Shown here in pieces: positions 25,086-61,720 of a DNA stretch of 64,000 nt. The notes below the pieces were generated by a model. It saw nothing but the letters and a program-made list of their open reading frames with translations, was not told the DNA's origin and did not search any database. Position 1 is the first letter of the stretch; each line of letters opens with the position of its first letter. Source of the stretch: Patescibacteria group bacterium (lineage in GTDB: Bacteria; Patescibacteriota; Minisyncoccia; Phycocordibacterales; Phycocordibacteraceae); assembly GCA_028866135.1 (NCBI GenBank), contig JAGWIS010000001.1:13357-77356 (forward strand). Reading direction: 5' to 3'. A program made the translations under genes and the position numbers.

Positions 25086-25843
25086 GCGAGGACGACGGGA
25101 ACGACGAGAGCCTTTCCCGCTCCCTCAACGATCCCGCGCTCCGCGCCGCCTACGCGAAGCCCTTCGACGGGCACCGCTGCGTGTTCATCGCCCGGCTTCT
25201 CGGATCGCTTCTCATCCATTCAGGGACGTTCGTTTACGGCCGCAAGCCTTCGTACGCGAAACTGAAAGCGATCGAAGTCATCGCCCGCATCCCCTACCAG
25301 TCGTGGGAGGTCGCGGCGTATACCATCCTCACCGCCCTGTACTCGGACGAACGCCGGGCGATCGAGCTCGCCAAGCTGAATGCCTTCAGTCGCGTGGCGC
25401 AGGACAACGAGACGATGCACGTCGTGGTCATCTCGCAGATCGTAGAGCGCCTCGGCTGCCAGGGATTCTTCCGCCACACGTTCATTCCGTTTCTCTTCTC
25501 GTTCTTCTATTTCTGGATGCTCTACTTTCTCTTTATCCTCTCTCCGCGTTCCGCGCTCGATCTCAACTACCTCTTCGAATCGCACGCATGCGCGCAATAC
25601 CAGGAATTTCTCGATACGGAAGGCGACCGCCTGCGGAAGACCCCGATCGCGTCGGCATTCCTCTCCTTCTACGGGAGGAACGTCAGGAACGAATACGAAT
25701 TATTCGAACTCATCCGGAACGACGAACTCATCCACCGGAACCGATCGGTGAGCGTGCTGAAATCGACTCGGAAACAAGAACGAACGGGGCGAGATGGAGT
25801 TCCTGGCGCTCAATTCCCCTCCGGGGTCGAGGAAGCCGCTTGA
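25082..25843 (+). CDS. Alternative-oxidase-like di-iron carboxylate protein (AOX/PTOX family).
   Basis: Four helix motifs resemble AOX iron ligands: IPYQSWE, DNETMH, LFESHA and IRNDELIHRN, compared with LET, NERMHL, LEEEA and RADEAHHR. Confidence 0.5.
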   Translation: MSEDDGNDESLSRSLNDPALRAAYAKPFDGHRCVFIARLLGSLLIHSGTFVYGRKPSYAKLKAIEVIARIPYQSWEVAAYTILTALYSDERRAIELAKLNAFSRVAQDNETMHVVVISQIVERLGCQGFFRHTFIPFLFSFFYFWMLYFLFILSPRSALDLNYLFESHACAQYQEFLDTEGDRLRKTPIASAFLSFYGRNVRNEYELFELIRNDELIHRNRSVSVLKSTRKQERTGRDGVPGAQFPSGVEEAA

Positions 25844-26469
25844 TCGCCGGAACTTGATTCGTGCATGGACGCGGAAGAGCTCGCTGAAGTCTCCGTGCTA
25901 CCCGCGCCGCCGCCCTCGCATTCCACTTCCATCTCGTTATCCATCTCCGAGCGCGTGCGTGGGCCCACAATGCCAAATCCGGTCGTTTCCGGAGTACCCG
26001 TAGACACGACGTTGTGAGCCGCTTGCCAACGCCGAACGGCTTCCTCGGTCATGGAGCCGAAATACCCCGTAACGGCCCCTTCGGGATAAATATTTCTGTC
26101 CTTCCCGAGGAAGGCTTGCAGCCGCGATACGTCGTCGCCCGTGGAGCCAGCCTGGAGATTCCCGGCCGAGAGTACGGGACATCCGCTGCCGTTCGCGGAT
26201 TGCGCCGATTCTCCAACAGAACTCGACAATCCGCTCGAGACTTGCGTCGAGGTCGCCGAAGCCGTGGTGCCCTCGAGCGCGACCTGCACGTTCGCAATCG
26301 TCGCCGGATCGGCGCCAAAAGCTTGTAAGAGATTGGTGACCGCGTCTATCTGAGCGGCAGTGAGGGAAGCCGCCATGACAGGCGGCGCCGCAGCAAAAAG
26401 GGACGCGGCGAGGGCGGCGCCGATTGTTACGGAAACAAAACGAGAATTTGCGTATGTATTCATATCCAT
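25810..26469 (-). CDS. Secreted protein with a peptidoglycan-binding (PG_binding_1) domain.
   Basis: It has a signal peptide and DVSRLQAFLGKDRNIYPEGAVTGYFGSMTEEAVRRWQ. Ser/Thr-rich linkers flank the domain. Confidence 0.55.
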   Translation of the reverse strand: MDMNTYANSRFVSVTIGAALAASLFAAAPPVMAASLTAAQIDAVTNLLQAFGADPATIANVQVALEGTTASATSTQVSSGLSSSVGESAQSANGSGCPVLSAGNLQAGSTGDDVSRLQAFLGKDRNIYPEGAVTGYFGSMTEEAVRRWQAAHNVVSTGTPETTGFGIVGPRTRSEMDNEMEVECEGGGAGSTETSASSSASMHESSSGDQAASSTPEGN

Positions 26470-26786
26470 AAAACGCCGGGGGAGTGGGTATTAGATAGTA
26501 ACTCGCGTACAGGGCAATGCTAGCACGAGCCAGAACCACAGAATTCACCGTGAGGAGGCTGTGTGGATAAAACGGAAAGACGATTCGTCTTTTTCATTAT
26601 GATGCACGTGGTGCGCGAGAGACGGGACTCTTTCCCTCGACTCTCGCTTCGCCGCCGCTCAGCTCGGTCTGGGCACAGCCTCGCGGCGATCACTGCCGTC
26701 CGCACATCGCTCCGGCATTCAACTCGCAAAGCTTCGCTTCGCGCTCTCGCGCAAAACACAAAGCCCCTTGCGGGGCATGTGTTTTG

Positions 26787-27071
26787 CGCGAGAGACGGGA
26801 CTTGAACCCGCAACCTCCGCCGTGCACGTTTCCACTGCTTTCGAAGTGGCGTGGACTATATCTTCACCATGGGTATTCCGTTAGGTGTTCCGGTATCTAG
26901 TCTCTACGGCGCCCCGCCACACTTTTGCGGTGTGGCGGGTTCCCTCGGTATTCGCATATTCGCCTACGGCGAACGTAGCCTCCACCGATATCCCAGAAAG
27001 TTTCAATCCCGATTTCTCGAGAAAGCTGCACGTCTACAGGGCGGCGCTCTAACCAGTTGAGCTACTCCCGC
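26787..27071 (-). tRNA. tRNA-Asp (anticodon GUC) interrupted by a group I intron, 285 nt in total.
   Basis: 5' exon 27071-27036 is GCGGGAG-TA-GCTC-AACTGGTTA-GAGC-G-CCGCC-CUGU. 3' exon 26824-26787 is CAC-GGCGG-AGGTT-GCGGG-TTCAAGT-CCCGT-CTCTCGC-G. The joined anticodon loop CUGUCAC and the T arm match E. coli tRNA-Asp, and the discriminator is G. Confidence 0.7.
26825..27035 (-). ncRNA. Group I intron (Azoarcus-like, subgroup IC3 type) in the anticodon loop of tRNA-Asp.
   Basis: The minus strand contains GUAGAGACUAGAUACCGG (P7 region; compare Azoarcus GUAGAGACUAGACGGCACC) and GAAGAUAUAGUCC. The intron ends with G. P1 can form between exon CUGU and intron GCAG with a U-G pair at the splice site. 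Confidence 0.7.
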
Positions 27072-27473
27072 ATTCCTAAATCCCGGATCGCATCTTTAAG
27101 CTTGATTCGCTTGCGCGGCAGATGCAACCTCGGAATTTTACCAGTATGATACATAATTCGATGAAGCGCAACGCTGTCGGTATGACTGAAGACCAGCTCA
27201 AAACCCCGAGTCTTTTTCTTTAACGAACCTCCGCGAATACCGCACCTTGTGTGCCCTGCTCTGCCGTTTTCGTTTCTGAATCTTATGCGTGGAGCCAACG
27301 GCGTTTCGGATCATTTCCAGAACGATACGGTCTGTAATGGTGAATTCGATGAAGTGCCCGTCGCGCTTATTGCGAATCATGGAACCATCTGCCGCGAAGA
27401 AACCGAGCACGTATGCCATTTCGGGCGACCATGTCTTGAAGAAATCATGATTCAGGTCTCGGTGCACCGGCAT
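27062..27473 (-). pseudogene. LAGLIDADG homing endonuclease, frameshifted into two ORFs (27198-27473 and 27062-27298).
   Basis: The upstream ORF has the LAGLIDADG motif AYVLGFFAADGSM. Its basic C-terminus breaks into a second frame. Together the two pieces are about 165 aa, typical for single-motif enzymes. Confidence 0.5.
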
Positions 27474-27551
27474 AGGTAAATACTATGATAGGGCATGACT
27501 ACAAGACTCGCGAAGTTGTACGGAAAGAAAATCGAATATTTCTTGTAGATC

Positions 27552-43573: not shown

Positions 43574-45348
43574 CGATGAAAAAGATTCCGTCCTGGTTCT
43601 TTTTTGTAAAAGAGTACGCGGTCGCGCACAAGACGGTCGCCGCGATAGGGGCGCTCGTCGTGCTCTACGCCGGCTACCATGCCTACAGCATCATTACCGC
43701 CCCTTCGACCGCGCCCCGCTACGTTACGACGACGGTCTCGACCAGCACCGTCGTCGCCTTCATCGACGAGACCGGGCAGGTTTCCGCAAGTTCGAATATC
43801 GACGTGCAATCGAAGTCCTCCGGCGAAATACTGTCAATGCCCGTGACGGCGGGGCAGCATGTGGACGCCGGAGCGGCACTCGCCTATCTCGATCCCACGA
43901 CGGCCGAACAGAACGTATCAAGCGCCCGACAGGCGCTTGAGTTAGCGCAGATAGCGCTCGCCAAGCTCCAGGAACCGGCGACGGACTCCGCGCTCACAGC
44001 CGCGGAGAACGCGGTCGCGGCGGCACAGGCGAATCTCGTGAATGCGCATGAGACCGGCTACAACGACGTTTCCTCCTCGTTCCTCGATCTGCCAAACGCG
44101 ATCACCAGCCTCAACAGCGTCCTCCATGGCAACACCGTTCCGGGGCGCACGAATCAGCAGAACGAGAGCGCCTATAGCGACATGATCGTCTCGTACGACA
44201 GCGGCGTCGTGCAGTATGAGACCATCGCGGAGAACGCGTATCAGGCCGCCTACGCCGCGTACACACAGACGCTCTCCGATTTCAAGTCGACGCCGCGCGA
44301 TGCGGACGATGCGAAAATGGAAGCGCTGATCACCGAGTCGTATCAGACGGCCGCACTCATCTCCGACGCGCTCAAAGCCTCGACCAATTTCCTCAACTTC
44401 GTGAACACGACCCTTTCGAATCACCAGCTCACGCTCCCCTCCACGCTCGCCGCACACATAAGCTCCCTTACCGGCTACACGACGACGACCAATGGCCACG
44501 TCGCGGCGCTCTCGAGCGACGCGGCGAGCGTGACGAGCTCCGAGCGCTCGCTCGCGGCGGCGAAAGCGTCGCTTGCGGAACTTCAGGCTGGTGCCGATCC
44601 GCTCGACATCCAGTCAAGCCAGCTTTCAGTCCAGATGAAGCAGGATGCGCTTTCGGTGGCCGAACAGGATCTTGCGGACACGGTTGTCCGGGCGCCTTTT
44701 AGCGGCACCGTCGCGAAGCTCGACGTGCAGCAGTACCAGACGATCGGCAGCGGCACCGCGATCGCCACGATGGTGAGCGACAACCAGAGCGTAGCCGTGT
44801 CGGTAAACGAAGTGGACGCGGCAAAGCTCAAGGTCGGACAGAAAGCGACTCTTGCGTTCGACGCGCTGCCGGGCATTTCGATCGCCGGAACCGTCTCCTC
44901 GGTGAACACGATCGGGACGGTCTCCTCCGGCGTCGTCTCCTACGGAGCCGTCATCACGTTCGACACGCCGAACCCAAGCGTGAAGCCCGGCATGAGCGCG
45001 ACCGCGAACATCGTCATCGGCACCGAAACAGGCCTTCTCGTGCCGCAAAGCGCGGTGAAGACGTCCGGCGGCCAGAAATACGTCGAGGTGTTTAATCCCC
45101 CGCTTGCCGGGAGTACCTCGAGCGCGGGGGCCGTCTCGGGAACGGCGCCGGAGCGAATAACTGTTGTCACCGGCCTTTCCGACGACACGAACATCGTCAT
45201 CGAAAACGGCCTCGCTGCCGGCGCCCAGGTCGTCGAGAGGACGATCGCGGGAGCGGCCGCGGCGCCGACAAGCGCCGCCCAGAGCACGTCGATCTTCGGC
45301 GCGGGACGCGGCGGCATCGGCGGCGGAGCGCGGGTTCTCACGCCATGA
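43570..45348 (+). CDS. Efflux membrane-fusion protein (HlyD/MacA family) with a long coiled coil.
   Basis: It has an N-terminal TM anchor, an extended Ala/Gln-rich coiled coil, and C-terminal beta-barrel/lipoyl-like segments ([13 protein letters not shown]). Confidence 0.65.
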
Positions 45349-46082
45349 TCGAGTTCAGGAACATCACCAAAACGTACGGCGCCGGCCCCGAGGCGTACGC
45401 CGCTCTTCGCGGCGTTTCTTTTTCCATCGACGAGGGAGAGTTTGTCGCGATCATGGGCCCCTCGGGAAGCGGCAAGTCCACGCTGATGCACATCCTCGGA
45501 TGCCTCGACACGCCGACCTCGGGCATCTATGAGCTCGACGGGAAAGATGTCTCGACGATGAGCGACGACGAGCTCGCCTTGATTCGCAAAGACAAGATCG
45601 GTTTCGTTTTCCAGTCCTTCAACCTCCTCCCCCGCACGACGGTCCTCCGGAACGTCGTGCTGCCGCTCGTCTACGCCGGCATCCCGCCCGAGGAGCGCGA
45701 TACGCGGGCCGCGGCGGCGCTTACCGCCGCCGGGCTCACCGAAGAGCACTTTCTCCATCTCTCGAACCAGCTCTCGGGCGGGCAGGTTCAACGGGTGGCC
45801 ATCGCTCGCGCGCTCGTGAACGACCCCGCGCTCATCCTTGCCGACGAACCGACCGGGAATCTCGACAGCCGGACGAGCCTGGTCGTGCTCGGCACCCTGC
45901 AGGAGCTCAACAGGAAACACGGACGTACGATCATCCTCATCACGCACGAGCCGGACATCGCCGAGCACGCCGATCGCATCATCCGCCTTCGGGACGGCCT
46001 CATCGTCTCCGACGAGAAGAACGCCGCGCCGCGCGACGCGGCGCGGGAGACGAAACTGTACGACGAACCCGCCCGCGTATGA
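45345..46082 (+). CDS. ABC transporter ATP-binding protein (MacB/LolD-like).
   Basis: It has Walker [10 protein letters not shown], signature [15 protein letters not shown] and Walker [11 protein letters not shown]. Confidence 0.85.
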
Positions 46083-46193
46083 CCCGACACACTGAAAAGG
46101 CGTTGTCCGACACTTTGCGGCAAAGTGTCGGACGCTGTGCTGTACCTCGCGATATGGAAAGAACGCCGTGCGTGGTTCTGCCAGTAACAGCAT

Positions 46194-58838: not shown

Positions 58839-59080
58839 GTGTAGCAGAAACGCCCGTTTTATCGCAGTTCGATTCCGTTACCCATGCTCAAAATCTGATC
58901 TATTTCGTTATGACTACACCACAAAACCACCCGAGTACGTGAGTACCGGAATCGCACTGGATATGTGTTGAAAATGCTGTGTGACCTCGCGCAGATATGC
59001 GCTTTTATCGCTCGACACCCGTGCCGGTCTTGAACCAATTTTGACGCGTAACGGTCTCTGATATGGGTCGCACTAGTCTG

Positions 59081-59398
59081 TTGCGGGGGTGGGACTTGAA
59101 CCCACGTCTGGAGGTTATGCTTGCCACTACAATTTTCATTGCCCTATGGTTTGTGGTCTGGACTATGCCTTCACCCGTCACACTGATTTTAAATCTAGTG
59201 AGGCGGGTGTCTGCCGTCTAGTCTCTACACCTTCTCCGCGATATGGCGAGTCGCCTATCTCACGGAGCTTGGCTCGGTATTGCCTTTCGCTTTTTGCAGG
59301 AAGGGTTCGCCGAATTTGACAGATGATCTTACGCGCAATTACTCGCGCGCACGCCCGAATGACTCAAGCCTCCCGAGGTACCTCTCCTCTACCCCGCT
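59081..59398 (-). tRNA. Initiator-like tRNA-Met (anticodon CAU) interrupted by a group I intron, 318 nt in total.
   Basis: The 5' exon (59398-59367) is AGCGGGG-TA-GAGG-AGAGGTA-CCTC-G-GGAGG-CU. The 3' exon (59119-59081) is CAUAA-CCTCC-AGAC-GTGGG-TTCAAGT-CCCAC-CCCCGCA-A. The joined loop is CUCAUAA. The 3' end CCCCGCAA and the A1-A72 mismatch resemble bacterial tRNA-fMet. Confidence 0.65.
59120..59366 (-). ncRNA. Group I intron (Azoarcus-like IC3 type) in the anticodon loop of the tRNA-CAU gene.
   Basis: The minus strand has GGUGUAGAGACUAGACGGCAGACACC (near-identical to the Azoarcus P7 region) and GGCAUAGUCC. The intron ends with G before the 3' exon, and a P2-like hairpin CGCGC-GAGUAAUU-GCGCG lies near its 5' end. 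Confidence 0.65.
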
Positions 59399-60280: not shown

Positions 60281-61720
60281 CTAAAGAGATTTCTCCACTG
60301 TGTTGCCTACGGTGAAAAGGACGTCTTCCGCCTGATGCGGCGCAGTGAAATGGATGCCGACGGGGAGCTCCTTGCCATCGCGATTGACCGTATTCATTGG
60401 AACGGAGATCGCCGGCATGCCGGTGAGGTTTGCGGTTACCGTAAAAATATCTTCGAGATACATGGAAAGAGGGTCGCTCTTTTCGCCGAACTTGAATGCC
60501 GGCGAAGGCGTCGTGGGGAATGCGATGACGTCGCACGATTCAAATGCTTTGTCGTATTCGCGGCGCAGCACGGCCCGCGCCGCATCCGCCTTGCGGTAGT
60601 ACGCGTCGATATAGCCGGAAGAGAGTACGAACGTGCCGAGGAGGATGCGGCGGCGCGTCTCTTCCCCGAATCCTTCGGTGCGGGATTTGATGTAATCATC
60701 AAGGAGCGTGTCCCCGCGCGCCGCGCGCCCGTAGCGCATGCCGTCGAGGCGCGCGAGATTGGTCGAGACTTCGGCGGGCATGATGATGTAGTACGCCGCA
60801 AGCGCGTGCGCGCTCGCCGGCAGCTCGACATCGACAACTGCGTGGCCGGCTTCTTTCAGTTTCGCAAGCGTCGCTTCGAATGCGACGAGCACGTCCGGGT
60901 CGACGCCCTCGCGAAGAAGGTGGCGCGGGACGCCGATGCGGAGCGTCTTCGGAATTTCGCGCTTCGGGTAGAGTCCGTCCGGGATGGTGGTGGAATCAAG
61001 CTCATCTTTTCCCCGGATCGCTTCGTGGAGGATGCGCGCATCGGCGACCGACTTCGCAAGCGGGCCGATCTGATCGAGCGAGGAGCCCATGGCGATGAGC
61101 CCCGAGCGGGAGACGGCGCCATAGGTGGGCTTCAGACCGACGATGCCGGTAAGCGCTGCGGGCTGGCGGATGGAGCCGCCGGTGTCTGAGCCGAGCGCGG
61201 CGATGGCGAGATGCGCGGCGACCGCTGCAGCGGAGCCGCCGGAGGAGCCGCCGGGTACGCGTTCCGTGTCGATAGGATTCTTCGTCGCGCCGAACGCGGA
61301 GTGCTCGGTCGACGAGCCCATGGCAAATTCGTCCATGTTGGTGCGGCCGATGAAAAGCGCTCCGGCTTCTTTCAGTTTTTTTACAACGCTTGCGTCGTAC
61401 GTCGCGCGATAGTTCTCGAGCATCTTCGAGGACGCGCTCGCGATCTTCCCTTCTATCAAAATATTATCTTTTATCGCGAGCGGGATTCCGCAGAGAAGCG
61501 GAGCTCGCTCGCCTTCCGCATCGATACGCTTCTGCGCTGCAGCTATTGCTTCATCATCTGCAGGGAAAATTTCCAGGTATGCGCGGAGCTCCGGATTGCG
61601 CTTTTGCGCCTCTTCCGCACACGCGTCCCAGAGCTCGCGCACCGAGCATTCCCGCGCGCGAAGGCGACGCGCGGCTTCCTCGATCGTGAGCTCGTTTAGC
61701 TTAGTCATCCCATTAGACAT
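60281..61720 (-). CDS. gatA: Glutamyl-tRNA(Gln)/aspartyl-tRNA(Asn) amidotransferase subunit A.
   Basis: It has the amidase signature GGSSGGSAAAVAA and Ser-cisSer-Lys triad context, at typical GatA size (479 aa). Confidence 0.9.
   Translation of the reverse strand: MSNGMTKLNELTIEEAARRLRARECSVRELWDACAEEAQKRNPELRAYLEIFPADDEAIAAAQKRIDAEGERAPLLCGIPLAIKDNILIEGKIASASSKMLENYRATYDASVVKKLKEAGALFIGRTNMDEFAMGSSTEHSAFGATKNPIDTERVPGGSSGGSAAAVAAHLAIAALGSDTGGSIRQPAALTGIVGLKPTYGAVSRSGLIAMGSSLDQIGPLAKSVADARILHEAIRGKDELDSTTIPDGLYPKREIPKTLRIGVPRHLLREGVDPDVLVAFEATLAKLKEAGHAVVDVELPASAHALAAYYIIMPAEVSTNLARLDGMRYGRAARGDTLLDDYIKSRTEGFGEETRRRILLGTFVLSSGYIDAYYRKADAARAVLRREYDKAFESCDVIAFPTTPSPAFKFGEKSDPLSMYLEDIFTVTANLTGMPAISVPMNTVNRDGKELPVGIHFTAPHQAEDVLFTVGNTVEKSL

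What the first reader, a model, noticed from the sequence alone, without database searches (positions are those of the whole stretch)
27062..27473. A decayed LAGLIDADG homing-endonuclease gene immediately 5' of the intron-containing tRNA-Asp.
The ORF at 27198-27473 carries a clear LAGLIDADG motif (AYVLGFFAADGSM). It continues in a second frame (27062-27298) that ends 10 nt inside the tRNA 5' exon. Homing endonucleases normally sit inside group I introns and mobilise them. A frameshifted free-standing copy next to the intron's host gene suggests a past homing event followed by endonuclease decay, or an unusual extra-intronic arrangement.
Basis: partly seen in the sequence, partly recalled or inferred. 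Interest (0 to 1): 0.6.

Follow-up and report, generated by a model that had tools for sequence, protein, structure and literature searches.

The report
Broken homing endonuclease beside tRNA-Asp
This is the wreck of a selfish DNA-cutting enzyme gene that, in hundreds of related ultra-small bacteria, sits directly in front of the tRNA-Asp gene, and it looks like the overlooked partner of the self-splicing intron found in that tRNA.

Summary
On the minus strand, 27473..27237 encodes residues 1-79 and 27247..27065 encodes residues ~167-227 of a 227-aa double-motif LAGLIDADG endonuclease. The two pieces are joined by a ~270-nt internal deletion (2 mod 3), not a simple frameshift. The deletion removed the second catalytic motif. 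The stop codon is U8-A9-G10 of tRNA-Asp(GUC) (27071..26786), which carries a 211-nt group I intron at anticodon position 35/36.

The position outside the intron is the rule for this family. In 78 of 78 usable species genomes (Patescibacteria/Parcubacteria), the intact gene lies directly 5' of tRNA-Asp; 28 have the intron and 50 do not. In a metagenome sample chosen by tRNA sequence alone, all 8 intron-bearing tRNA-Asp genes had this gene upstream. None of 72 intronless ones had an intact copy.

Many loci also keep a relic of a tRNA-Asp 5' half upstream of the gene. It ends at position 38, 3 nt from the intron site.

Best reading: a free-standing homing endonuclease aimed at the tRNA-Asp anticodon loop, with the ORF-less intron as protector or hitch-hiker ("collaborative homing", known only from phages). 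The window copy is a recent pseudogene. The mechanism is inferred, not shown. The 2026 survey of these introns concluded they lack endonucleases.

The parts
27485..27506 (-). Degenerate 'psi box' TCTTGTAGTCATGCCCTATCAT, a relic of a tRNA-Asp 5' half (positions ~18-38) that precedes the endonuclease gene in this family
   Evidence: It is 16/22 identical to the box of the closest relative L001 (GGTTATAGTAATGTCCTGTCAT) and lies at the same 12-nt distance from the ATG. The family consensus GGTTAGAG-N6-CCTGTCAC is colinear with tRNA-Asp G18-C38. L046 keeps an almost complete 5' half. Against its own tRNA the window copy is only 14/39 identical, so it is identified through its relatives.
27480..27485 (-). 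-10-like hexamer TAGTAT, 6 nt before the start codon (possible promoter of a leaderless mRNA)
   Evidence: Relatives have TATACT, TACAAT or TATAAT at the same place. The generic sigma-70 scan finds no full promoter here. This part is inferred.
27237..27473 (-). Endonuclease fragment A: residues 1-79, including the first LAGLIDADG motif (VLGFFAADGS). The ORF then runs out of frame to the stop at 27198.
   Evidence: Pfam PF14528. 59-78% identity to homologues over residues 1-79. 81% DNA identity to L001 and L002.
27237..27243 (-). Deletion junction (CGGTAT microhomology). About 269-272 nt, equal to residues ~80-168, are missing.
   Evidence: DNA alignment offsets against L001 and L002. Both parental sites in relatives carry GTAT or GGTAT. 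On the predicted structure the loss covers the last strand and helix of domain 1, LAGLIDADG helix 2 (residues 112-126) and strands and a helix of domain 2.
27062..27247 (-). Endonuclease fragment B: residues ~167-227 in the other frame, with stop TAG at 27064..27062
   Evidence: tblastn 62-76% identity, E down to 6e-26. 76-80% DNA identity. The stop is tRNA U8-A9-G10.
27036..27071 (-). tRNA-Asp(GUC) 5' exon (positions 1-35)
   Evidence: ARAGORN -i
26825..27035 (-). ORF-less group I intron, 211 nt, inserted between anticodon nucleotides 35 and 36 (U before the 5' splice site, G at the intron's end)
   Evidence: ARAGORN -i. Rfam RF00028 at 31.6 bits. It agrees with 97 of 99 columns that are >=90% conserved in 23 homologous introns, and is 89% identical to L001's intron. 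This intron class self-splices in vitro (PMC13011429).
26786..26824 (-). tRNA-Asp 3' exon
   Evidence: ARAGORN -i
26744..26794 (-). Terminator-like hairpin directly after the tRNA; its long stem includes the last nucleotides of the tRNA
   Evidence: inverted repeat I1, 17 nt, 100% complementary

Best explanation
Identity. The finding is a recently inactivated copy of a free-standing, monomeric double-motif LAGLIDADG homing endonuclease. Its family lives at one fixed address in Parcubacteria-type Patescibacteria: immediately 5' of the tRNA-Asp(GUC) gene, reading into it. A microhomology-mediated deletion of ~270 nt destroyed the window's copy. The intron-bearing tRNA-Asp next to it is intact.

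Proposed mechanism (inferred, not shown). The enzyme recognises the intronless tRNA-Asp gene and cuts in or next to the anticodon loop. Repair from an endonuclease-carrying chromosome copies the endonuclease gene, which lies 36 nt from the intron site, together with flanking tRNA sequence. The ORF-less group I intron at position 35/36 splits that target. It therefore shields the resident tRNA gene from its own endonuclease and is carried along by co-conversion. This is 'collaborative' or trans homing. Once the intron is in place the endonuclease is dispensable and decays, which is the state seen in the window.

Shown here: the gene's identity, the deletion, the fixed position, the association with the intron, and the relic tRNA half that ends at position 38.

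Inferred: the cleavage site, the protective role of the intron, and present-day mobility.
For: Identity and fold:
- Pfam LAGLIDADG_3 hit.
- 426 homologues, almost all 208-237 aa, with both catalytic Asp residues invariant.
- AlphaFold model at pLDDT 90.8. Foldseek top hits are I-Tsp061I (E 7e-11), E-DreI, I-SmaMI, I-OnuI and I-AniI.

Deletion.

Fixed address:
- At least 502 species genomes encode the family.
- In all 78 retrieved loci that have downstream sequence, tRNA-Asp(GTC) follows on the same strand. It usually overlaps the ORF's end, and the stop falls at tRNA positions 8-10, 13-15 or 21-23.
- Phage relatives (<=38% identity) are not tRNA-linked: 2 of 80 have any tRNA nearby.

Link to the intron:
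- 28 of 78 loci carry a homologous 196-241-nt intron at the same site.
- In a scan blind to the endonuclease, all 8 intron-bearing tRNA-Asp loci have the gene (6 intact ORFs or ORF ends, 1 cut by the contig end, 1 multiply frameshifted). By contrast 0 of 72 intronless loci have an intact copy, and 0 of 22 clearly Parcubacteria-like 'empty sites' do. Nominal Fisher p values are 3e-11 and 2e-07.

Selfish life cycle:
- Empty sites have tRNA-Met, a ~45-nt spacer and then tRNA-Asp.
- Pseudogenes occur in the window, L009, L024, L027, L030 and L086.
- 10-35-codon C-terminal relics occur in L176, L154, L113 and L117.

Target clue:
- 38 of 80 loci have GGTTAGAG-N6-CCTGTCAC 12-17 nt before the start codon. 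It has the same spacing as tRNA-Asp G18-C38. Only 1 of 99 endonuclease-free loci has it.
- L046 retains a whole 5' half (32/40 identical to a real tRNA-Asp) broken right after position 38. Its acceptor strand pairs 7/7 with a relic 3' end downstream and not with the resident tRNA.

Intron mobility among endonuclease-bearing loci:
- The intron state changes at least 15 times on the endonuclease tree.
- Intron and endonuclease distances correlate only weakly (Mantel r 0.23).
- Intron-bearing loci share more similar exons at every endonuclease distance (0.21 vs 0.30, permutation p 2e-04).

Precedent: F-CphI with the psbA intron, and mobE with I-TevIII (PMC6083498, PMC3984707, PMC2790892).
Against: - No cleavage data exist for any family member.
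- 50 of 78 loci have an apparently intact endonuclease with conserved catalytic residues next to an intronless tRNA-Asp. Their exon sequence can be identical over positions 8-65 to that of intron-bearing loci (L010 vs L011). If the enzyme cut that sequence these genomes would cut themselves, so other immunity, altered specificity or a different target must be assumed.
- A pattern of 'intron only where the endonuclease is' can also arise from nested vertical descent. The loci are not phylogenetically independent, so the Fisher p values are nominal.
- The metagenome sample covers only one D-arm type of tRNA-Asp.
- The psi box is absent from about half of the loci, and it is so degenerate in the window that it is recognised only via relatives.
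- Its conservation could reflect promoter function alone.
Confidence: 0.6

Rival explanations
1. The endonuclease is selfish and free-standing, but it targets its own insertion point (the tRNA-Met/tRNA-Asp spacer and the 5' edge of tRNA-Asp) and not the anticodon loop. The intron has no protective role. It merely hitch-hikes because it lies 36 nt away and is co-converted ('intronless homing' with a passenger).
For: The gene sits in the spacer between two conserved tRNA genes, which could serve as homology arms. Its insertion there would by itself disrupt a junction-spanning site, which explains the 50 intact-endonuclease, intronless loci. Exon similarity among intron-bearing loci fits co-conversion. 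T4 SegB in a tRNA cluster (PMC2330249) and mobE (PMC2790892) are comparable cases.
Against: Spacers of empty sites are AT-rich and not conserved between species, so a site there would be a poor target. The relic 5' half ends at position 38 and not at the tRNA's 5' edge. This model does not explain why no intron-bearing locus lacks the endonuclease when the reverse is common.
Confidence: 0.2
2. The protein is domesticated and not selfish. It could be a maturase that helps the tRNA-Asp intron splice, or a DNA-binding regulator of the tRNA-Asp locus. The window has simply lost it.
For: The intron strictly co-occurs with the gene. The gene is deeply conserved at one locus across many candidate phyla, with a rough match to taxonomy. 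bI3 maturase and the bifunctional I-AniI are among the structural neighbours. A conserved tRNA-like box at the gene's own promoter could be an operator.
Against: The intron persists, with 97 of 99 conserved positions intact, beside a destroyed gene in the window. It also persists beside the pseudogenes in L009 and L086. This intron class self-splices without protein in vitro (PMC13011429). Two thirds of loci have the protein but no intron. Both catalytic Asp residues are invariant, unlike in WhiA-type domesticated proteins, and there is no added HTH domain. Presence/absence polymorphism, pseudogenes and relics fit a selfish element.
Confidence: 0.12
3. The association is only historical. The endonuclease entered an ancestor, the intron entered a descendant, and both are now inherited vertically without any functional interplay or ongoing mobility.
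For: A nested distribution (intron within endonuclease-bearing lineages) is what vertical descent predicts. Endonuclease similarity roughly follows the taxonomic labels. Flanking genes of the window and L004 are syntenic.
Against: There are at least 15 intron state changes on the endonuclease tree, including sister pairs that differ. The intron and endonuclease trees are poorly congruent. L046 shows replacement of a resident tRNA-Asp by a foreign type together with the endonuclease. Many independent losses of the intron but none of the endonuclease alone would be required.
Confidence: 0.08

Closest known systems
Collaborative homing: free-standing F-CphI next to the intron-containing psbA of cyanophage S-PM2 (Zeng, Bonocora & Shub 2009; described in PMC6083498 and PMC3984707)
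   Same: [quoted passage not shown] The proposed logic is the same: the endonuclease cuts the intronless allele at the intron site, and the intron prevents self-cleavage and gains mobility.
   Different: That system is in phages, in a protein-coding gene, and uses an Endo VII-type enzyme with cleavage demonstrated. Here it is a cellular bacterium, a tRNA gene and a LAGLIDADG enzyme whose ORF overlaps the tRNA. Hundreds of species carry it, many copies lack the intron, and cleavage is untested.
Phage T4 mobE / I-TevIII trans homing, and SegB in the T4 tRNA cluster (PMC2790892, PMC2330249)
   Same: A free-standing endonuclease mobilises neighbouring DNA by co-conversion, including a defunct intron element. 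SegB sits among tRNA genes.
   Different: Those are HNH and GIY-YIG enzymes of phages. There is no fixed overlap with one tRNA gene and no relic half-tRNA.
Group I introns at position 35/36 of tRNA-Asp and tRNA-Asn in Patescibacteria (Nakagawa et al. 2026, PMC13011429)
   Same: The window's intron belongs to this class: same host phylum, same tRNA, same site, U before the 5' splice site and G at the intron's end, about 200 nt.
   Different: That study searched for endonuclease genes only inside introns longer than 500 bp. It concluded that most tRNA introns lack them and that horizontal transfer is limited. It does not mention the adjacent free-standing LAGLIDADG gene.
LAGLIDADG enzymes encoded in rRNA insertions of CPR bacteria (I-ShaI; Tsurumaki et al. 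2024, PMC11270868)
   Same: Same superphylum and same enzyme superfamily, and homing to an RNA gene.
   Different: Those enzymes are intron- or insertion-encoded and predominantly single-domain homodimers. This family has two domains, is monomeric and is free-standing.
Archaeal intron-encoded I-Tsp061I / I-DmoI-type monomeric LAGLIDADG enzymes (PDB 2dch, 1mow)
   Same: Best sequence and fold matches: two alpha-beta-beta-alpha-beta-beta-alpha domains of about 200-230 aa.
   Different: Only about 20% identity, and those enzymes are encoded inside rRNA introns.
Free-standing endonuclease genes in fungal mitochondria that insert into a gene and bring a replacement gene end (e.g. Allomyces atp6; recalled from memory, not checked here)
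   Same: An endonuclease cassette leaves a displaced, decaying piece of the target gene on one side and a functional copy on the other, as in L046 and the psi box.
   Different: Those are organellar protein genes with C-terminal duplications. Here a tRNA 5' half is displaced.

Membership tests
LAGLIDADG homing endonuclease (monomeric, two-motif) | Profile match to a LAGLIDADG domain above the curated threshold | tested here: met
   PF14528: 30.1 bits (cut-off 22.5) for the window ORF; 45-57 bits with two stretches for full-length homologues
LAGLIDADG homing endonuclease (monomeric, two-motif) | Two LAGLIDADG helices, each ending in a catalytic acidic residue | tested here: not met
   The family meets this: D29 and D126 are invariant. 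The window copy keeps motif 1 (VLGFFAADGS) but has lost motif 2 through the deletion. It is therefore a pseudogene of the family and not a working member.
LAGLIDADG homing endonuclease (monomeric, two-motif) | Double alpha-beta-beta-alpha-beta-beta-alpha fold | tested here: met
   Model of homologue P0002 at pLDDT 90.8 and pTM 0.88. Foldseek probability is 1.00 to I-Tsp061I, E-DreI, I-SmaMI and I-OnuI.
LAGLIDADG homing endonuclease (monomeric, two-motif) | Site-specific double-strand cleavage of a ~20-bp target | not testable with these tools
   Needs purified protein and substrates.
LAGLIDADG homing endonuclease (monomeric, two-motif) | Optional (present/absent) gene with empty sites and decay stages | tested here: met
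   22 Parcubacteria-like empty sites, 6 pseudogenes and 4 short relics
Intron-encoded homing endonuclease | ORF lies inside the intron it mobilises | tested here: not met
   The ORF ends in the 5' exon, upstream of the intron. The 211-nt intron holds no ORF.
Collaborative (trans) homing pair | [quoted passage not shown] | tested here: met
   Adjacent in the window and in 28 genome loci. 8 of 8 intron-bearing loci against 0 of 72 intronless loci in a sample blind to the endonuclease.
Collaborative (trans) homing pair | Endonuclease cuts the intronless allele at or near the intron insertion site | tested here: inconclusive
   Indirect support only: the relic tRNA-Asp 5' half upstream of the gene ends at position 38, 3 nt from site 35/36. 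Against this, intact endonuclease genes lie beside intronless tRNAs of identical sequence.
Collaborative (trans) homing pair | Intron-containing allele is resistant to cleavage | not testable with these tools
   Needs a cleavage assay.
LAGLIDADG maturase | Protein is needed for splicing of its partner intron | tested here: not met
   A conserved intron lies beside destroyed genes (window, L009, L086). Self-splicing in vitro is reported for this class (PMC13011429). This is indirect; in vivo dependence was not tested.
WhiA-type domesticated LAGLIDADG protein | Loss of catalytic residues plus a C-terminal HTH domain | tested here: not met
   The catalytic Asp residues are invariant and no HTH domain is present. 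The WhiA profile scores only at or below threshold.
Patescibacterial tRNA 35/36 group I intron | Inserted between anticodon nucleotides 35 and 36, U at -1, G at the 3' end, group I core | tested here: met
   cctgt|aga...gtg|cacgg. RF00028 hit at E 6e-06, below the gathering score. 97 of 99 conserved columns retained.

The most novel reading that the evidence does not exclude
The family may be a natural 'cleave-and-rescue' cassette for an essential RNA gene. In this reading the endonuclease breaks the resident tRNA-Asp gene at the anticodon loop. The cassette carries its own replacement tRNA-Asp, made uncuttable in many lineages by a self-splicing intron placed in the target. The displaced tRNA half is recycled as the endonuclease's promoter or operator. 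This would make the intron an antidote to a resident nuclease. It would explain why group I introns persist in tRNA genes of the most reduced bacterial genomes, and it would overturn the published inference that these introns are immobile.
Probability: 0.3. Interest if true: 0.8.

Novelty: new variant of a known kind. Interest (0 to 1): 0.6.

Why it matters
The window's gene itself is only a pseudogene. Tracing it, however, exposes a large family (at least 502 species) of free-standing LAGLIDADG endonucleases locked to the 5' edge of tRNA-Asp in Patescibacteria and tightly associated with the recently described 35/36 tRNA-Asp intron.

The only systematic study of those introns looked for endonuclease genes inside introns. 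It concluded that they are mostly absent and that transfer is limited.

If the adjacent gene is the intron's partner, three things follow:
- Collaborative homing, so far known from two phage systems, operates widely in cellular bacteria and on a tRNA gene.
- Intron persistence in minimal genomes gets a selfish-element explanation in place of a regulatory one.
- A new set of compact meganucleases with a predictable 20-odd-bp target (the tRNA-Asp anticodon arm) becomes available for testing.

Tried and rejected
- Simple frameshift. Rejected: about 89 codons are missing.
- Displaced intron ORF. Rejected: the family is free-standing at this spot in every locus.
- Default ARAGORN and Rfam gathering thresholds miss the tRNA and the intron. 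The intron mode and E-value mode were needed.
- The 18-nt repeat of the tRNA 3' end downstream (26612-26629) as the right-hand scar of the endonuclease cassette. Rejected as a general feature, because such repeats are equally frequent with (8/73) and without (9/91) the endonuclease. Only in L046 does the repeat match the upstream relic half.
- Phage origin or a phage vector. Viral contigs hold only distant relatives (<=38% identity) with no tRNA linkage.
- Strict co-descent of intron and endonuclease. The correlation is only weak.
- A systematic difference in exon sequence between intron-bearing and intronless endonuclease loci around the intron site that could explain immunity. None was found; anticodon arms overlap fully.
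- Relaxed selection on endonucleases of intronless loci. Not seen; the motifs are equally conserved.
- Look-up of the window protein's contig. Not on record.
- NCBIfam. No model matches.
- ARAGORN's tRNA-Pro with an 843-nt 'intron' at 45172-46101. This is a false call inside an ABC-transporter gene.
Full report
**1. What is in the window**

All features lie on the minus strand. The ORF 27473..27198 (91 aa) carries the motif AYVLGFFAADGSM. It matches Pfam LAGLIDADG_3 at E 5.8e-07, above the curated cut-off. It is identical to a protein that NCBI annotates in a Patescibacteria MAG.

ARAGORN with introns allowed finds tRNA-Asp(GTC) at 27071..26786. A 211-nt intron lies between anticodon nucleotides 35 and 36 (cctgt|aga...gtg|cacgg). 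The default run and the Rfam gathering threshold both miss it. In E-value mode Rfam Intron_gpI gives 31.6 bits, E 6e-06.

Here GCGGGAG is the acceptor strand of the tRNA and TAG is U8-A9-G10.

**2. The lesion is a deletion, not a frameshift**

The protein search returned 426 relatives. Nearly all are 208-237 aa long and have two LAGLIDADG motifs, VLGFFAADGS and VRGYFDGDGCV.

tblastn of eight of them against the window maps the two fragments as follows:

| Homologue residues | Window coordinates | Frame |
|---|---|---|
| 1-79 | 27473..27237 | -3 |
| ~167-227 | 27247..27065 | -1 |

Nothing in the window corresponds to residues 80-166.

DNA alignment to the two closest loci gives offsets that differ by 269-272 nt (2 mod 3). 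Both parental sites in relatives carry GTAT or GGTAT. The window's junction reads CGGTAT (27243..27237), the signature of a microhomology-mediated deletion.

An AlphaFold model of a full-length homologue has pLDDT 90.8. On that model the lost segment covers the last strand and helix of domain 1, the linker, the second LAGLIDADG helix and half of domain 2. The copy cannot be active.

Both remaining fragments are still free of stops and are 76-81% identical in DNA to relatives, so the deletion looks recent. I could not inspect reads. An assembly error is unlikely with only 5-6 nt of microhomology, but it is not excluded.

**3. The family and its address**

The model's best structural matches are monomeric two-domain LAGLIDADG homing endonucleases: I-Tsp061I at E 7e-11, then E-DreI, I-SmaMI, I-OnuI and I-AniI, along with the bI3 maturase. 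The best sequence match in the PDB is also I-Tsp061I. Both catalytic aspartates are invariant.

A scan of one genome per species found at least 502 species that encode the family. All 80 retrieved loci are Patescibacteria of the Parcubacteria type, including Kaiser-, Moran-, Nomura-, Wolfe-, Taylor-, Lipton- and Zambryskibacteria.

- Two loci end at the contig edge. In all 78 others the gene is followed on the same strand by tRNA-Asp(GTC).
- The tRNA usually overlaps the ORF's end, so the ORF stops at a TAG inside the tRNA, at positions 8-10, 13-15 or 21-23 depending on frame.
- 28 of these tRNAs carry a 196-241-nt intron at the same site, and 50 have none.

The position outside the intron is therefore the invariant rule of the family. 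The link is first of all to tRNA-Asp. Relatives on viral contigs are distant (<=38% identity) and are not next to tRNAs.

**4. The intron goes with the endonuclease**

To avoid selecting on the endonuclease, I scanned metagenome contigs for a tRNA-Asp D-arm/anticodon pattern.

- **Intron-bearing loci.** Eight of the 120 loci returned have the intron. All eight have the endonuclease gene upstream: five complete, two cut by the contig end but with a clear C-terminal part, and one multiply frameshifted.
- **Intronless loci.** Of 72 intronless tRNA-Asp loci with enough upstream sequence, none has an intact copy.
- **Empty sites.** 22 of the 72 are recognisably Parcubacteria-like 'empty sites', with tRNA-Met, an AT-rich spacer of about 45 nt and then tRNA-Asp.
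- **Relics.** A profile search found 10-35-codon relics of the C-terminus directly before the tRNA in four 'empty' loci: L176, L154, L113 and L117.

Together with the pseudogenes in L009, L024, L027, L030, L086 and the window, this gives every stage of the invasion, decay and loss cycle expected of a homing endonuclease gene. The Fisher p values (3e-11 and 2e-07) are nominal because the loci are not independent.

The published baseline is 3 intron-bearing tRNA-Asp genes in 95 complete Patescibacteria genomes.

**5. Signs that the intron moves among endonuclease-bearing loci**

- The introns form one homologous family; L044's is divergent.
- On a neighbour-joining tree of the endonucleases, the intron state changes at least 15 times, including between sister tips.
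- Intron and endonuclease distances correlate only weakly (Mantel r 0.23, p 0.02).
- Intron-bearing loci have more similar tRNA exons (positions 8-65) than intronless loci in every bin of endonuclease divergence (0.21 vs 0.30, permutation p 2e-04). This is what co-conversion of exon flanks would give.
- The window's intron keeps 97 of 99 highly conserved positions and is 89% identical to L001's.
- L004 shares flanking genes with the window at 74-86% identity. It has an intact endonuclease and no intron.

**6. A clue to the target**

Upstream of the start codon, 38 of 80 loci carry GGTTAGAG-N6-CCTGTCAC with at most 4 mismatches. The box ends 17 nt before the ATG, or 12 nt in the window's clade. 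A TATAAT-like hexamer follows, and then about 6 nt to the start codon. The two conserved blocks, and their spacing, are those of tRNA-Asp G18 to C38. Only 1 of 99 endonuclease-free loci has such a match.

L046 shows what the box is. It has an almost complete tRNA-Asp 5' half, GCAGCCGTGGTGTAGCCCGGTTAACACAACATCCTGTCAT, which is 32/40 identical to a real tRNA-Asp. This half is fused immediately after position 38 to AGCG-TATAAT-GAAAGC-ATG.

- Its acceptor strand GCAGCCG does not match the resident tRNA (GGGCCGG/CCGGCCC).
- It does pair 7/7 with a relic 3' end about 110 nt downstream of the resident tRNA (...TCCCGT CGGCTGT G CCA).

In that genome, therefore, a tRNA-Asp was broken at the 3' edge of the anticodon loop. 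It was replaced by a foreign tRNA-Asp that arrived with the endonuclease gene.

The break lies 3 nt from the intron insertion site. This is where LAGLIDADG enzymes of mobile introns normally cut relative to their intron (established knowledge of the family).

The window retains a degenerate box at 27506..27485. It is 16/22 identical to L001's at the same distance from the ATG, but only 14/39 identical to its own tRNA.

**7. Most likely mechanism**

I conclude that the family is a free-standing homing endonuclease directed at the tRNA-Asp gene, most probably at its anticodon loop. The ORF-less intron at 35/36 would be its partner. The intron splits the site, which protects the resident gene, and it is copied along with the endonuclease gene 36 nt away.

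This is the 'collaborative homing' logic shown for F-CphI and the psbA intron of cyanophage S-PM2. It is related to mobE/I-TevIII trans homing in T4.

After the intron is fixed, the endonuclease has nothing left to cut and decays. That is the window's state.

The steps divide as follows:
- **Shown:** identity, deletion, fixed address, association with the intron, and the relic half-tRNA.
- **Inferred:** cleavage position, protection by the intron, and current mobility.

**8. What does not fit**

Fifty loci combine an apparently functional endonuclease gene with an intronless tRNA-Asp. Their anticodon arms are the same as those flanking introns elsewhere; L010 and L011 are identical over positions 8-65. 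The catalytic motifs are as conserved in this group as in the intron-bearing one.

Several explanations are possible:
- The target is elsewhere (rival 1).
- Specificity has drifted.
- Expression is tightly repressed, perhaps through the tRNA-like box acting as an operator, as I-TevI does at its own promoter (recalled from memory, not checked here).
- The protein has a host function (rival 2).

The maturase version of rival 2 is weakened by two points. Conserved introns lie beside destroyed genes (window, L009, L086). Self-splicing in vitro has also been reported for this intron class.

**9. Comparison with the literature**

Nakagawa et al. 2026 described the 35/36 introns of tRNA-Asp and tRNA-Asn in Patescibacteria and demonstrated self-splicing. 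They looked for endonuclease ORFs only within introns longer than 500 bp. They concluded that most lack them and that horizontal transfer is limited. Their text has no mention of a free-standing or adjacent LAGLIDADG gene.

Tsurumaki et al. 2024 characterised LAGLIDADG enzymes encoded in CPR rRNA insertions. Those are mostly single-domain.

Full-text searches for free-standing LAGLIDADG genes at bacterial tRNA genes returned nothing matching this arrangement. NCBIfam has no model for the family. PHROGs has a generic 'endonuclease' family that matches it.

**10. Verdict**

The finding is real and correctly read in outline. The window copy is an ordinary pseudogene. The system it belongs to is a new variant of a known kind: collaborative or free-standing homing, here with a LAGLIDADG enzyme, in cellular bacteria, at a tRNA gene, and with a recycled half-tRNA. 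It bears directly on an open question about why introns persist in minimal genomes. Interest 0.6.

Noticed in passing
window 26612-26629 and 26785-26802: An exact 18-nt direct repeat of the tRNA-Asp 3' end (T-arm 3' strand, acceptor 3' strand and discriminator) lies 173 nt downstream of the tRNA. The same kind of repeat occurs 120-400 nt downstream of tRNA-Asp in about 10% of related loci, whether or not the endonuclease is present (8/73 vs 9/91). It is therefore a separate, unexplained feature, possibly an att-like scar of a small integrating element.
   Followed up: partly
window 26744-26794: A 17-nt perfect inverted repeat around a GC-rich terminator hairpin. Its outer stem is formed by the last 8 nt of the tRNA-Asp gene plus trailer, so the terminator and the acceptor stem would compete for the same nucleotides.
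   Followed up: no
window 59080-59398 (-): A second intron-containing tRNA. Rfam Intron_gpI scores 56 bits at 59127-59375. ARAGORN calls it tRNA-Ser(tga) with a 247-nt intron. The junction ...GGCU|...G|CAUAACC fits a tRNA with anticodon CAU and an intron at 33/34, a class also reported for Patescibacteria. No LAGLIDADG ORF lies beside it.
   Followed up: partly
L176, L154, L113, L117 (metagenome loci), just 5' of tRNA-Asp: Loci that look free of the endonuclease keep 10-35-codon relics of its C-terminus (..LKLYNIMYN..MRx*). The relic contains TTGAAA/TTTAAA-N15/16-TATAAT, where ATG TAT AAT are the MYN codons. It may survive because it serves as the tRNA-Asp promoter.
   Followed up: partly
L001-L080, 12-17 nt upstream of the endonuclease start codons; window 27474-27485: A -10-like hexamer ends only about 6 nt before the start codon and no Shine-Dalgarno sequence is visible. 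This suggests that these genes are expressed from leaderless mRNAs. In some clades (L032, L037, L047) the ATG instead follows tRNA-Met by 2-20 nt, which implies co-transcription with the tRNA operon.
   Followed up: no
all loci; window 27062-27073: The endonuclease ORF has no stop codon of its own and terminates on a TAG inside the tRNA. RNase P processing of the tRNA 5' end would therefore remove the stop and leave a non-stop mRNA. This may act as a brake on expression of the nuclease.
   Followed up: no
L004, L018, L066, L065 (tRNA-Asp T-arm): These tRNA-Asp genes have an unusual T-arm, GTGGGGTCAGCACCCAT. It lacks the usual TTCRANT T-loop.
   Followed up: no
window 25810-26786: Relative to the syntenic locus L004, the window has about 1 kb of extra DNA between tRNA-Asp and the next shared gene. 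It includes ORF 26469..25810 (219 aa, Ala/Ser-rich with a signal-like N-terminus).
   Followed up: no
window 45172-46101 and 60724-60896: ARAGORN in intron mode calls a tRNA-Pro with an 843-nt intron and a tRNA-SeC. The first lies inside an ABC-transporter ATPase ORF (45345-46082, + strand) and is a false positive. The second was not examined.
   Followed up: partly
window 27062-27473: The endonuclease remnant has 50% G+C, against 57.6% for the window and 57-61% for the neighbouring genes. This is consistent with a foreign or AT-biased selfish gene.
   Followed up: no
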